Of a stretch of 64,000 nt of DNA, positions 42,476 to 52,923 are shown one piece after another. The stretch is taken from the NCBI GenBank assembly GCA_963674745.2, contig CAXXDV010000001.1, forward strand, positions 1,440,001 through 1,504,000. The letters run 5' to 3'. The DNA comes from Desulfosudaceae bacterium. Its GTDB lineage: Bacteria; Desulfobacterota; Desulfobacteria; Desulfobacterales; Desulfosudaceae. Below the pieces are notes generated by a model that searched no databases, was not told where the DNA came from, and was given only the letters and a program-made list of their open reading frames with translations. Position numbers and translations under genes: made by a program. Each line of letters begins with the position of its first letter. Positions within the stretch are counted from its first letter, which is position 1.

Positions 42476-42609
42476 GGCTATTTTTCAGCCTAACGTCTCA
42501 AGCCAATGGCAGCCAGGGCTTCCACTGACTTGGTTAAAGAATTTAATTGTTCAACTCCCCCGACATTTCAAAACCCGAGTGCCCTGGCTGTCCACTTGAG
42601 CTTCTTGGT

Positions 42610-43319
42610 GTGTGCCGGGCACGGCACATGTTCTTAAAAGTGAGCCAAGGCTATCATATATTTGATAATTTTGGCAAGTCTTAGACCCAGCCTGATGGAG
42701 GCGAAGGGTGTAGCGGTAGTGCAACGGGGTACCGGTGACGGTGCTTCGGGAGGAAGCCGCCCTGCTGCGGAAGGGTACCGCGAAGGTACGGGATGACGCA
42801 CAGGAATCGAGTATAAGGCGCGCACGCCGGGACGAGTCTGCACAACAAGGCAAAGTCCTCTATCCATCTTAAGGCGTGTCCGTAAACTCGGCATTTACGT
42901 ACCGAAAGACACGTGCTTACCCCGGGAGATCTCTCCTGTGCCGTACAACGGCTGAGGGTCGGGTAACCGGCCCTGACCGCAGGGGAGAAGTCAGCAGAAG
43001 GCATAGTAGCCGGCGGAAACGAGCCGGGCCTCCCTTAAGCGGGAGAAGTATACCCGGAGGACTCACCCCGGTGAAGGCCGGAACGGTGCCCGGACCGAAT
43101 GGCACGGGTAAATGGTGGTGGCAAGTAAGGGAGTATCTCTTACGGGGATAATGCGGCAGCTGCCGAAATTCACGTAGCGAGCTTTCTCTGAAAACCCGGT
43201 GGAGCTGGTGGGATAACTCACAGCCGGTTTCATCAGTACCAGCCGAACCGCCTTGGTACGTGATCCGTATGCCAGGTGGTGTGGGAGGGGGTAGCCGTGA
43301 GGCTACTCCCTATCCCAAT
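42610..43319 (+). mobile_element. ORF-less group IIC-attC intron, copy 1 (710 nt)
   Basis: 5' GTGTG; DV GAACCGCC..GGTGGTG with CGC triad; DVI ending CCCAAT; splits attC core GT|TGGGGC; no RT ORF. Confidence 0.92.
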
Positions 43320-43334
43320 TGGGGCAAAAAAATA

Positions 43335-43372
43335 TTGACAATTCGCCCTTTATATGTACAATATGCTGTACA
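43335..43372 (+). promoter_or_regulatory. yefM-yoeB promoter/operator
   Basis: TTGACA-16 nt-TACAAT; two TGTACA palindromes 12 bp apart (43355, 43367). Confidence 0.8.
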
Positions 43373-43384
43373 GGAGGTGATGAA

Positions 43385-43636
43385 ATGGAAGCCATAACCT
43401 ATACAGCAGCAAGACAAAACCTTGCTAAAACAATGGAAAAAGTTTGTCGAGACCGTGCTCCGATGATTGTAACACGGAAGTCCTCGGAATCTGTAGTTAT
43501 TATGTCTCTTGAGGATTTTGAATCCCTTGAAGAGACAGCATATCTATTGCGGTCACCGAAAAACACAAGACGGCTGATTGAATCTATCGTCCAACTCGAA
43601 AATGGCAAAGGAGATGAAAAGGAGCTTATAGAGTGA
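43385..43636 (+). CDS. yefM: YefM antitoxin (cassette)
   Basis: MEAITYTAARQNLAKTM..SLEETAYLLRSPKN. Confidence 0.93.
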   Translation: MEAITYTAARQNLAKTMEKVCRDRAPMIVTRKSSESVVIMSLEDFESLEETAYLLRSPKNTRRLIESIVQLENGKGDEKELIE

Positions 43637-43887
43637 AGCTCATTTTTTCTGACCATGCCTGGGACGATTACATCTATTGGCAAAAAACGGACAAAAAAAT
43701 TCTTCGCCGTATCAACACCCTCATTAAGGAAACTAAACGCAGCCCTTTTGAGGGTGTTGGCAAACCTGAACCTTTGAAACATGCGCTTTCCGGCTACTGG
43801 TCCAGGCGAATCAATGACGAGCATAGATTCATTTATAAGGTTTCTGATGATGCAATTTTGATTGCTCAATTGAGATACCACTACTGA
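43633..43887 (+). CDS. yoeB: YoeB/Txe toxin (cassette)
   Basis: AWDDYIYW..GKPEPLK..WSRRINDEHR..RYHY. Confidence 0.95.
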   Translation: MKLIFSDHAWDDYIYWQKTDKKILRRINTLIKETKRSPFEGVGKPEPLKHALSGYWSRRINDEHRFIYKVSDDAILIAQLRYHY

Positions 43888-44022
43888 TCTTTCTTGTAGC
43901 CCCAACGGCGGCCGCCAATGGGAGCCAGGGCTTCCACTGACTTGCCTTAAAGTCGGTTAATGTTCGTTTTCCCCCGAATTGTTCAAAACCCGAATGCCCT
44001 GGCGATCCATTGCGCGGCCTTG

Positions 44023-44496
44023 TTAAGCGCCCATTTTCTTAATAGTATTTCGTCTTAATATGAAAAGCGTTTTCAATATAAAGAACAACACAAAGCTGAA
44101 AAAAAATCCGTTGGCTAATAATCCCACTGCAGCAAGTATTTGAGTCCTTTGGTTGAATTGTCTTTGTCCTATTGCATGATCTAATAATGGCTGGTAGATC
44201 CATTTCTGTTGTAAAGGCCTCAAGGCAGGACCAAAAGGTAAAGATAAAACAAACGAAAGATAATATGTGGAACGAATCTCGTTTTTAAAATTAACTTTCA
44301 AATTCTGGATTTCATTTTCTTCGAATTCTGGTTGTTCGATGGATTTTAAAAAAAGAGAGCCAACTTTCTTCCCGGCCAAATTCCCATGATAAATCGATAT
44401 GGAAAGGCTCATCAAAATATGAAGGAAAGCGATTGAGGCAATAATTACTATCTGTTTTGAATTGTATCTCATGTCATGCTTGGGAGCTATTGTCAT
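44023..44496 (-). CDS. Cassette membrane protein, unknown function
   Basis: Fills cassette; stop TAA inside R'' box. Confidence 0.7.
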   Translation of the reverse strand: MTIAPKHDMRYNSKQIVIIASIAFLHILMSLSISIYHGNLAGKKVGSLFLKSIEQPEFEENEIQNLKVNFKNEIRSTYYLSFVLSLPFGPALRPLQQKWIYQPLLDHAIGQRQFNQRTQILAAVGLLANGFFFSFVLFFILKTLFILRRNTIKKMGA

Positions 44497-44512
44497 ATTT
44501 TTGGCGCTTAAC

Positions 44513-44728
44513 GAGTCTGTAGGAAAAGTCTATTTTCGATAAATTTTATCTTTTTTCAGAAAAACACCTTCGTAGAATATATTTTATACTAAAACATAAA
44601 ATCCTTGCAAACCATCTATTTTAGATGGCTTCACAGAGATCATACAAAATCTTATATAACTTTCAGTTTTTCAAAAATTGGCGACAAAACCCTATGTTTT
44701 ACTCAAATTTTACTTTTTCTACAGCCTC
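44513..44728. mobile_element. 216-bp attC-associated MITE-like element, copy A
   Basis: TIRs GAGTCTGTAGGAAAAGT / ACTTTTTCTACAGCCTC; flanks AAC..ATC; 2 substitutions vs other copies. Confidence 0.8.
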
Positions 44729-44848
44729 ATCGTCGGAAGCCAGAGGCAGCCAGGGCTTTCTCGGACTGCCTTAATGATGATTAATGTTCATTTCCCCCAG
44801 GTTGCTCAAAATCCGACTGCCCTGGCTGTCCTTTCTGAGCTTCCTGGT

Positions 44849-45558
44849 GTGTGCCGGGCACGGCACATGTTCTTAAAAGTGAGCCAAGGCTATCATATAT
44901 TTGATAATTTTGGCAAGTCTTAGACCCAGCCTGATGGAGGCGAAGGGTGTAGCGGTAGTGCAACGGGGTGCCAGGGACGGTGCTTCGGGAGGAAGCCGCC
45001 CTGCTGCGGCAGGGTACCGCGAAGGTACGGGATGACGCACAGGAATCGAGTATAAGGCGCGCACGCCGGGACGAGCCTGCACCACAAGGCAAAGTCCTCT
45101 ATCCATCTTAAGGCGTGTCCGTAAACTTGGCATTTACGTACCGAAAGACACGTGCTTACCCCGGGAGATCTCTCCTGTGCCGTACAACGGCTGAGGGTCG
45201 GGTAACCGGCCCTGACCGCAGGGGAGAAGTCAGCAGAAGGCATAGTAGCCGGCGGAAACGAGCCGGGCCTCCCTTAAGCGGGAGAAGTATACCCGGAGGA
45301 CTCACCCCGGTGAAGGCCGGAACGGTGCCCGGACCGAATGGCACGGGTAAATGGTGGTGGCAAGTAAGGGAGTATCTCTTACGGGGATAATGCGGCAGCT
45401 GCCGAAATTCACGTAGCGAGCTTTCTCTGAAAACCCGGTGGAACTGGTGGGATAACTCACAGCCGGTTTCATCAGTACCAGCCGAACCGCCTTGGTACGT
45501 GATCCGTATGCCAGGTGGTGTGGGAGGGGGTAGCCGTGAGGCTACTCCCTATCCCAAT
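44849..45558 (+). mobile_element. ORF-less group IIC-attC intron, copy 2 (710 nt)
   Basis: About 8 substitutions vs copy 1; splits GT|TAAGCGG core. Confidence 0.92.
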
Positions 45559-46187
45559 TAAGCGGCATGTGGCTTTGGTGGTACGGGTACGCCCAGATGT
45601 CGTGCAGCTATTCGTGCCAAGCGACCGATGTTTTGGTTCGACGATAAGGAGACTTCCCGCAGCAGGGCTGTTGCAGTCTCCGAATTCCCAGAATGGTGAA
45701 GAATAGCAGCGAGAGAGACCCTCCTTCGGGGTGGTGTGAAGCAATCAAGGAGCCCAAGATTCCAGCGCTCAATGATCGAATGACGATCAGATAAATCGGA
45801 AAGGAATGGAAGGACGTTATTCACCAGGGAGGATTCTATCTCTTCCACAGCCTGTTCGAAACTGGACTCAGAGAGTGTCCACCAGTGATCGGTGCCATGC
45901 GGTTCAAGTACTCCAATTCGTGCACGGATCTCACATTCGGGCTCCGCGACAAACTCTGGTGATGCATCTGCGCCTTTTAAAGCCAGTGCAACTTCCGGGA
46001 TATAGACACCGATATTTATCGTGCACCTACCAGGAGGCCTTCTGCTGAGCTGCAGCTCGATTACATGAACGAGTTTCGCAGGAAGCGCGCGGTTGTAGGT
46101 GCGCCCTTTTCTGACAAACCCGTTACTTTGGAAGGTCCGCCCAAGCCGAGTCTGAAGCCGAGTTGCTATCTGTTGATGAGAACCCAT
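45558..46187 (-). CDS. DUF4304-like cassette protein
   Basis: GFVRKGRTY..VIELQLS..CTINIGVYIP..RIG..WW pattern; GC-richer than neighbours. Confidence 0.65.
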   Translation of the reverse strand: MGSHQQIATRLQTRLGRTFQSNGFVRKGRTYNRALPAKLVHVIELQLSRRPPGRCTINIGVYIPEVALALKGADASPEFVAEPECEIRARIGVLEPHGTDHWWTLSESSFEQAVEEIESSLVNNVLPFLSDLSDRHSIIERWNLGLLDCFTPPRRRVSLAAILHHSGNSETATALLREVSLSSNQNIGRLARIAARHLGVPVPPKPHAA

Positions 46188-51644: not shown

Positions 51645-52049
51645 CGTCTGCAGCCAAAGTAGCCAGGGCTTCCAGTGACTGACTTTAAGGTGGTTGATGT
51701 TCAATTTCCCCCGAATGTTCAAAAGCCGAATGCCCTGGCTATCATTTGGGCTGCTTGGTTAAGTGCCCGCATTATTCAGAAAGACTTTAACGACAGCATG
51801 GGCAAATAAATAAAATTAATTTTTTTCTTTTTACGCCTTGTCCATCATGAACTTATAAAAACGGGCAGGTCTCTTTTCATCCGGACAAATAAAGGCGCAT
51901 TATCATCTGGCCGCGCCAGTTCGAAATTACAATTTATCTTTACTGGACAAAAATATCAACTTGGTGACAATTATAATTTTGGCAACGAATGTCGAATTCA
52001 GCCAAAATTCTTTTTTTATTTTTTTCTCGTACAAATTCAGTGCACTTAA
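51645..52049 (-). repeat. Gene-less cassette copy 4
   Basis: Homologous to 46963-47366. Confidence 0.85.
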
Positions 52050-52050
52050 C

Positions 52051-52923
52051 GAGTCTGTAGGAAAAGTCTATTTTCGATAAATTTTATCTTTTTTCAGAAA
52101 AACACCTTCGTAGAATATATTTTATACTAAAACATAAAATCCTTGCAAACCATCTATTTTAGATGGCTTCACAGAGATCATACAAAATCTTATATAACTT
52201 TCAGGTTTTCAAAAATTGGCGGCAAAACCCTATGTTTTACTCAAATTTTACTTTTTCTACAGCCTCAACGAGTCTGTAGGAAAAGTCTATTTTCGATAAA
52301 TTTTATCTTTTTTCAGAAAAACACCTTCGTAGAATATATTTTATACTAAAACATAAAATCCTTGCAAACCATCTATTTTAGATGGCTTCACAGAGATCAT
52401 ACAAAATCTTATATAACTTTCAGGTTTTCAAAAATTGGCGGCAAAACCCTATGTTTTACTCAAATTTTACTTTTTCTACAGCCTCAACGAGTCTGTAGGA
52501 AAAGTCTATTTTCGATAAATTTTATCTTTTTTCAGAAAAACACCTTCGTAGAATATATTTTATACTAAAACATAAAATCCTTGCAAACCATCTATTTTAG
52601 ATGGCTTCACAGAGATCATACAAAATCTTATATAACTTTCAGGTTTTCAAAAATTGGCGGCAAAACCCTATGTTTTACTCAAATTTTACTTTTTCTACAG
52701 CCTCAACGAGTCTGTAGGAAAAGTCTATTTTCGATAAATTTTATCTTTTTTCAGAAAAACACCTTCGTAGAATATATTTTATACTAAAACATAAAATCCT
52801 TGCAAACCATCTATTTTAGATGGCTTCACAGAGATCATACAAAATCTTATATAACTTTCAGGTTTTCAAAAATTGGCGGCAAAACCCTATGTTTTACTCA
52901 AATTTTACTTTTTCTACAGCCTC
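52051..52923. mobile_element. Four tandem copies (C-F) of the 216-bp MITE-like element
   Basis: 52051-52266, 52270-52485, 52489-52704, 52708-52923; 219-bp period separated by AAC. Confidence 0.88.

What the first reader, a model, noticed from the sequence alone, without database searches (positions are those of the whole stretch)
42831..45090. Intron copies differ in the candidate EBS1 guide loop (ACAA vs ACCA), matching the two attC end types
Seen: copy 1 GACGAGTCTGC-ACAA-CAAGGC (42842-42845); copy 2 GACGAGCCTGC-ACCA-CAAGGC (45081-45084). The flanking stem is kept (U-G becomes C-G). attCs in this array mostly end TTGT|T (GGCGTTGTT, GGCCTTGTT) or TGGT|T (GCTTGGTT), and both introns follow TGGT. 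Known: EBS1 ACAA pairs with IBS1 TTGT in IIC-attC introns. Inference: copy 2 carries a compensatory retargeting mutation that pairs fully with TGGT, while copy 1 keeps the ancestral guide on a mismatched site. This would be natural guide reprogramming.
Basis: partly seen in the sequence, partly recalled or inferred. Interest (0 to 1): 0.8.

Follow-up and report, generated by a model that had tools for sequence, protein, structure and literature searches.

The report
Two guide alleles in mini-introns
Two copies of a small mobile self-splicing intron that lives in integron recombination sites carry different versions of the four-letter RNA guide that picks the landing site; the newer version matches a common site variant, but both versions sit on both kinds of site, so this looks like a soft shift in preference of a kind already known from other introns.

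Summary
Observation confirmed. Both copies are 710-nt ORF-less group IIC-attC introns; the loop is EBS1 (aligns with a clinical IIC-attC intron; loop positions 1-3 covary with exon -1 to -3 in 56 relatives). ACCA is not private to copy 2: it is an inherited allele, always linked to the stem change, in 4 of 6 ORF-less copies in the genome. Three of the four sit on TGGT, one on TTGT; both ACAA copies sit on TGGT (allele versus site p=1; 38% of free attC are TGGT). Support for real retargeting comes from elsewhere: an independent ACC clade in genome G282 sits on NGGT 4 of 4; pooled, C3 faces G 7 of 10 versus A3 9 of 40 (not independent). Against: two other ACCA introns sit on TTGT. Position 3 is a soft pair, and copies recombine, so the direction of change is unresolved. 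Natural EBS divergence is published (PMC2882425); I found no report for IIC-attC introns. The scan had already noted this mini-intron family in this genome (e1-7724311). Verdict: real, modest, testable; a variant of a known process.

The parts
42488..42609 (+). attC body in bottom-strand orientation upstream of copy 1 (AAC at 42492; target hairpin)
   Evidence: fold of the empty site
42606..42609 (+). IBS1 of copy 1, TGGT (A-G mismatch with EBS1 position 3)
42610..43319 (+). ORF-less group IIC-attC intron, copy 1 (W1), 710 nt
   Evidence: Rfam RF02001 120.9 bits and RF01998 41.8 bits; boundaries
42837..42851 (+). Id3 hairpin of copy 1, with U-G pair at 42837
42842..42845 (+). EBS1 allele ACAA
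43115..43240 (+). short domain IV without RT ORF, shared with ORF-less relatives and structured
43247..43319 (+). domains V and VI of copy 1 (CGC triad recalled as typical of IIC)
   Evidence: fold z=-4.87
43320..43324 (+). 3' exon of copy 1: IBS3 T and rest of the attC R'' core
43335..43887 (+). cassette carried with copy 1: promoter-like site 43335-43362, YefM 43385-43636, YoeB 43633-43887
44725..44848 (+). attC body upstream of copy 2; core reads ATC instead of AAC at 44729-44731; 118 nt identical to a free attC at C1:1509029
44845..44848 (+). IBS1 of copy 2, TGGT (full match to ACCA)
44849..45558 (+). ORF-less group IIC-attC intron, copy 2 (W2), 710 nt
   Evidence: Rfam RF02001 109.5 bits
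44965..44986 (+). GNRA-loop hairpin of domain I with three W2 differences that weaken it (-9.9 versus -14.1 kcal/mol)
45076..45090 (+). Id3 hairpin of copy 2, with C-G pair at 45076
45081..45084 (+). EBS1 allele ACCA
45558..46187 (-). 209-aa cassette ORF ending at the insertion site of copy 2; no NCBIfam family

Best explanation
The two copies belong to a family of six non-autonomous IIC-attC introns that insert into the bottom strand of attC sites at GT|T. The attC hairpin and the GTT core fix the position; the EBS1 loop pairs with the last four exon bases, strictly at -1 and -2, loosely at -3, and without evidence of selection at -4. Bases -3 and -4 lie in the variable unpaired spacer of attC, and this host has two spacer types (TTGT and TGGT). 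One change of EBS1 position 3 (A to C), travelling with a stem-strengthening U-G to C-G change, was inherited by four copies. It most likely tilts insertion and splicing toward TGGT sites without excluding TTGT; ACAA copies still use TGGT. Shown: identity of the loop, allele table, linkage, recombination between copies. Inferred: the functional tilt, mobilisation in trans by a related IEP, the order of events.
For: Loop positions 1, 2, 3 are the best-covarying columns for exon -1, -2, -3 (MI 0.91, 1.35, 0.63; Watson-Crick 56, 53, 48 of 56 versus shuffle maxima 45, 31, 38; position 4 41 of 56, shuffle mean 41.6). Clinical IIC-attC intron L305 has ACAA in the same column and a TTGT|T site. Genome table: ACCA on TGGT 3, TTGT 1; ACAA ORF-less on TGGT 2; full-length ACAA on TTGT 1. 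Family 5 of 6 on TGGT versus 77 of 204 free sites, p=0.03. Independent ACC clade in G282 on NGGT 4 of 4, sister ACAT on TTGT; one clade of the G000 and G282 ACC introns is rejected with the hairpin masked (p-AU 1.6e-41). Pooled C3: 7 G, 3 T; A3: 9 G, 31 T, Fisher 0.007. ACCA allele is also in contigs of runs X1, X3 and X8.
Against: No allele-site association inside the genome (p=1) and ACCA 3 of 4 on TGGT is not beyond the 38% baseline (p=0.15). Two other ACCA introns (L017 of G006, L145) sit on TTGT. The pooled test counts related copies; by lineage it is two for, one against. All four outside C-G matches come from one genome, whose site baseline I could not measure, and two or three of them are not clearly attC. 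The census covers only the long attC families, while Y4 and Y6 sit in short attC sites. No splicing or mobility data.
Confidence: 0.55

Rival explanations
1. Neutral polymorphism: position 3 is so loosely read in attC-type introns that A or C makes no practical difference; alleles drift and are shuffled among copies after insertion.
For: ACAA on TGGT 7 of 37 outside the genome and 2 of 3 inside; ACCA on TTGT 3 times. Four-gamete conflicts between nt 228/235 and 595/620. Off-register guides that cannot have made their insertion (L137 ACAA after GGTT, L267 CACA, L276 AACA after TGGT) show change after insertion.
Against: Position 3 covaries with exon -3 across IIC introns (48 of 56, shuffle maximum 38); G282 ACC clade 4 of 4 on NGGT; computed 4-mer duplex ACCA/UGGU -2.5 versus ACAA/UGGU +0.1 kcal/mol.
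Confidence: 0.22
2. Reverse polarity: the whole ORF-less family was already ACCA (retargeted) when it spread, and W1 and X3 were converted back to ACAA after insertion by recombination with the co-resident full-length intron.
For: W1 is identical to the full-length intron over nt 168-240 while W2 differs at exactly 228 and 235; X3 and Y6 differ only at these two sites and one private site; it explains both the perfect linkage and why both ACAA copies are on TGGT (5 of 6, p=0.03); the masked tree does not resolve direction.
Against: Needs a conversion tract of at most 73 nt; the unmasked tree nests ACCA inside ACAA (100/92), although the two sites themselves drive that branch; U-A to U-G to C-G is an ordinary stepwise path; Y4 is still a mismatch.
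Confidence: 0.15
3. One reading: the mutation arose in copy 2 to repair its mismatch with the local TGGT site.
For: W2 is fully matched and W1 is not.
Against: The allele is shared by three copies on another contig; W2 is a derived member of that group; the same allele is in other runs. At most the common ancestor of the four gained it at some TGGT site.
Confidence: 0.05

Closest known systems
Group IIC-attC introns (S.ma.I2 and relatives; PMC3001079 passages; PMC7923331 passages; PMC8876359 passages)
   Same: Insertion in the attC bottom strand, opposite to cassette genes, at the R'' GT|T position; 4-nt EBS1; ACAA with TTGT|T seen in plasmid intron L305.
   Different: No RT ORF; six near-identical copies; two EBS1 alleles in one genome; most copies on TGGT rather than the published TTGT|T consensus.
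Thermosynechococcus elongatus TeI3/TeI4 introns (Mohr et al. 2010, PMC2882425, passages)
   Same: ORF-less copies mobilised in trans; families that diverged in EBS sequence and occupy matching sites; some copies on poorly matched sites; exon shuffling by recombination between introns.
   Different: Those are IIB introns with long EBS1+EBS2 guides and sharp retargeting; here one soft base of a 4-nt guide changes and the target is a structured attC.
Terminator-targeting IIC introns (PMC4424553 passages; PMC4748821 passages)
   Same: Same Id3 hairpin; many natural EBS1 alleles matched to their exons in my sample (15 distinct loops in 56 rows).
   Different: Target is a terminator hairpin; alleles differ mostly between species, not among 99% identical copies.

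Membership tests
Group II intron (IIC ribozyme) | GUGYG start, AY end, domain I core, DV and DVI | tested here: met
   RF02001 and RF01998 above gathering score; ends; DV-DVI fold. RF00029 did not reach its gathering score.
Group II intron (IIC ribozyme) | Short EBS1-IBS1 pairing (3-4 bp) plus upstream DNA hairpin | tested here: met
   Covariation at three positions; hairpins upstream of all seven copies.
Group II intron (IIC ribozyme) | EBS3-IBS3 pair | not tested
   All seven 3' exons begin with T, but I did not map EBS3.
Group II intron (IIC ribozyme) | Self-splicing or IEP-assisted splicing | not testable with these tools
   Only contigs were laid, none from RNA runs.
Group IIC-attC | Insertion in attC bottom strand, opposite to cassette genes, at R'' | tested here: met
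   7 of 7 copies in the genome.
Group IIC-attC | Consensus site TTGT|T | tested here: not met
   5 of 6 ORF-less copies are on TGGT|T; the paper gives TTGT|T for the majority only.
Group IIC-attC | IEP in the monophyletic IIC-attC clade | tested here: inconclusive
   The copies have no IEP; the related full-length intron matches TIGR04416 and its closest relatives follow attC-like hairpins, but no tree with S.ma.I2 was built (its record is not held).
EBS-divergent intron families (TeI type) | Each EBS allele forms a clade that occupies its own matching sites | tested here: inconclusive
   ACCA is one group but 1 of 4 is mismatched and both ACAA copies are mismatched; met in G282, 4 of 4.

The most novel reading that the evidence does not exclude
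ORF-less IIC-attC introns repeatedly and independently switch EBS1 position 3 to C, together with a stronger Id3 stem, to track the spacer sequence of their host's attC sites (and in G282 to reach non-attC hairpins); the hairpin may travel as a recombining module between introns. This genome would catch the switch in progress, with both alleles and both site types side by side.
Probability: 0.3. Interest if true: 0.62.

Novelty: new variant of a known kind. Interest (0 to 1): 0.42.

Why it matters
If the tilt is real, it shows that attC-invading introns adapt their short guide to the variable spacer of the host's attC sites, and it gives a natural two-by-two test (two alleles, two sites, otherwise 99% identical RNA) of how much a single EBS1 pair contributes when a DNA hairpin does most of the targeting. 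It also extends EBS-driven diversification, published for IIB introns, to the IIC-attC lineage. It is not a new mechanism.

Tried and rejected
EBS1 lying elsewhere in domain I: rejected, within 32 offsets around the hairpin the loop columns rank first for exon -1 to -3; the rest of domain I was not scanned this way. Assembly error: rejected, the allele is in 4 copies and in contigs of 3 of 4 runs laid (X4 has no cover there; X1 may be the source sample; contigs of related introns are mixed in and unphased). Misfolding as the reason for the stem change: no support, EBS1 stays unpaired in all six folded copies. Simple ORF deletion of the resident full-length intron: rejected, domain IV and VI differ and match ORF-less relatives instead. 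More ACC introns: pattern searches found them in 2 of 400 other genomes of the order, 3 of 400 of the class (the extra one, G241, is a fragment without its 5' end), 0 of 400 of the phylum sample, none in viral contigs; samples overlap. L132 (ACCA, tandem behind another intron) could not be extended and was dropped with L143 from site counts. My first attC census missed one attC family and gave 53% TGGT; the corrected figure is 38%. Regex errors were corrected in 24 and 57. Primary papers on IIC-attC site rules (PMC2714756, PMC2747902) and on GsI-IIC (PMC6082379) are not held; Quiroga and Centron 2009 was seen only as a reference. PMC5072309 (passages) concerns IEP, not EBS, adaptation; PMC8643678 and PMC12584367 gave background only.

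Full report
Observation. The window holds two 710-nt repeats at 42610-43319 (W1) and 44849-45558 (W2) that match Rfam group II domain I models and differ at 8 positions. Both introns lie on the + strand, which is the bottom strand of attC sites of a cassette array whose ORFs mostly run on the - strand. Neither has an RT ORF.

Is the loop EBS1? Yes. It sits in the terminal hairpin of the Rfam model and is unpaired in the folds. A plasmid IIC-attC intron between aadA11 and its attC (L305) has ACAA in the same alignment column and a TTGT|T site. In 56 distinct hairpin-plus-site rows, collapsed from 95 loci after dropping one misparsed and the tandem rows, loop positions 1, 2 and 3 are the top-covarying columns for exon -1, -2 and -3, with Watson-Crick pairs in 56, 53 and 48 of 56 (shuffle maxima 45, 31, 38); position 4 shows no signal. 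Relatedness inflates these figures, but four, four and three pair types occur at the three positions. Terminator-type IIC introns carry the loop at nt 180-183, which fits the numbering I recall for the Oceanobacillus intron (recalled, not checked).

All copies in the genome. G000 has six ORF-less copies and one full-length relative. W1 ACAA/TGGT; X3 ACAA/TGGT; W2, Y5, Y6 ACCA/TGGT; Y4 ACCA/TTGT; full-length Z7 ACAA/TTGT. T228 always goes with A235 and C228 with C235. So 3 of 6 ORF-less copies are mismatched at -3. Allele and site are not associated (p=1). Of 222 full-length hits to the two long attC families, free sites end TTGT 127 and TGGT 77 (with two sites reassigned). Against that 38%, 5 of 6 copies on TGGT gives p=0.03, and 3 of 4 ACCA copies p=0.15. 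Short attC sites are not in the baseline.

History. In a tree of 72 domain I-II sequences the six copies are sister to Z7 (95/91) and the ACCA copies form a nested group (100/92). With the hairpin masked, X3, W1 and Y6 are unresolved, so direction rests on the two sites themselves. W1 equals Z7 over nt 168-240, which allows back-conversion as a rival. Four-gamete conflicts between the 5' and 3' halves show recombination or repeated mutation. Flanks point the same way: W1's toxin-antitoxin cassette end is 98% identical over 163 nt to the 3' flank of an intron in G009 that has another attC.

Outside the genome. Among 43 AC-type introns at GT sites, position 3 versus exon -3 was A/T 30, A/G 7, C/G 4, C/T 2 (Fisher 0.029; with G000 0.007) (67 rows had a called loop; AACA-type, tandem and off-register rows are not in the 43; introns without a called loop or 5' exon were left out). 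The four C/G cases are one clade in G282, on TGGT, CGGT, AGGT and GGGT, sister to an ACAT intron on TTGT, and they show the same C-G stem. They do not group with the G000 ACC copies. The two C/T cases are L017 and L145. By lineage the score is two for and one against. A second attC-type class, AACA, inserts one base further, after GTT. The ACCA letter was seen in contigs of runs X1, X3 and X8.

How it works. Shown or well established: IIC-attC introns use the attC bottom-strand hairpin, a 3-4 bp EBS1-IBS1 pair and EBS3 (PMC7923331, passages). Exon -1, -2 and +1 are the conserved GTT; -3 and -4 fall in the unpaired spacer (folds), so the guide meets variation exactly at position 3. Inferred: C3 gains a G-C pair on TGGT and loses an A-T pair on TTGT, tilting but not fixing the choice; the C-G stem pair may hitchhike or stabilise the loop. 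Mobility needs an IEP in trans; the only same-family one in the genome, in Z7, keeps YADD but has an in-frame stop at codon 311, and the other RT genes belong to different intron classes. The family may now be immobile, or may have been moved by passing helpers.

The ORF-less body is itself a lineage: its domain IV is shared with introns in seven other loci and shows paired changes (15 of 51 pairs with change on both sides, 0 of 500 shuffles; six sequences, structure derived from them).

Comparison and novelty. Divergence of EBS sequences among ORF-less copies in one genome, followed by homing to new sites, is published for T. elongatus (PMC2882425, passages). Literature searches returned no report of an ACC guide, of TGGT targeting or of ORF-less copies for IIC-attC introns, but the primary papers on their site rules were not available and no supplements were read. 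Verdict: observation confirmed, interpretation partly supported, new variant of a known kind, interest 0.42.

Noticed in passing
window 43115-43240 and L137, L161, L132, L153, L216, L242, L247: A conserved, structured, ORF-free domain IV defines a lineage of ORF-less IIC-attC mini-introns, 70-80% identical over the complete elements, in several genomes and metagenomes.
   Followed up: partly
L019, L220, L221, L242 and others: A second attC-type class with EBS1 AACA inserts one base further 3', after GTT instead of GT.
   Followed up: partly
G282 loci L261, L263, L287, L289, L294: ACCT-guided mini-introns and 5' fragments follow NGGT at sites that are not clearly attC; L289 lies in a short duplicated stretch of what looks like a transposase gene (by eye).
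   Followed up: partly
window 44729-44731: The attC upstream of copy 2 has ATC in place of AAC, while an otherwise identical 118-nt attC at C1:1509029 keeps AAC; this junction may no longer recombine.
   Followed up: partly
window 43320-43480 and L016: The YefM-YoeB cassette end plus intron 3' end is shared with G009, where the attC is a different, short one; fits attC exchange through intron recombination.
   Followed up: partly
window 44970-44975: Three W2 differences in a GNRA-loop hairpin weaken it and may impair W2 even though its guide is matched; nt 122 matches the full-length intron.
   Followed up: partly
L002/L003 (C1:2271977, C3:2339500) and L006:7534-9731: Two other group II intron types sit in the cassette arrays: two copies with an open 467-aa RT frame and one frameshifted copy in the opposite orientation.
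   Followed up: no
L301, L303: Class 1 integron plasmids carry introns in the cassette-sense strand of attC after CGT, with an ACGT loop at the EBS1 position (by eye).
   Followed up: no
window 52045-52782: Three identical units spaced 219 bp apart in the cassette array.
   Followed up: no
G000 C1:1480922-1531324: The array holds more than 70 long attC sites; no integron integrase was found beside it (the three over cut-off lie elsewhere).
   Followed up: no
L132, L143: Tandem introns, one directly behind the other, in metagenome contigs.
   Followed up: no
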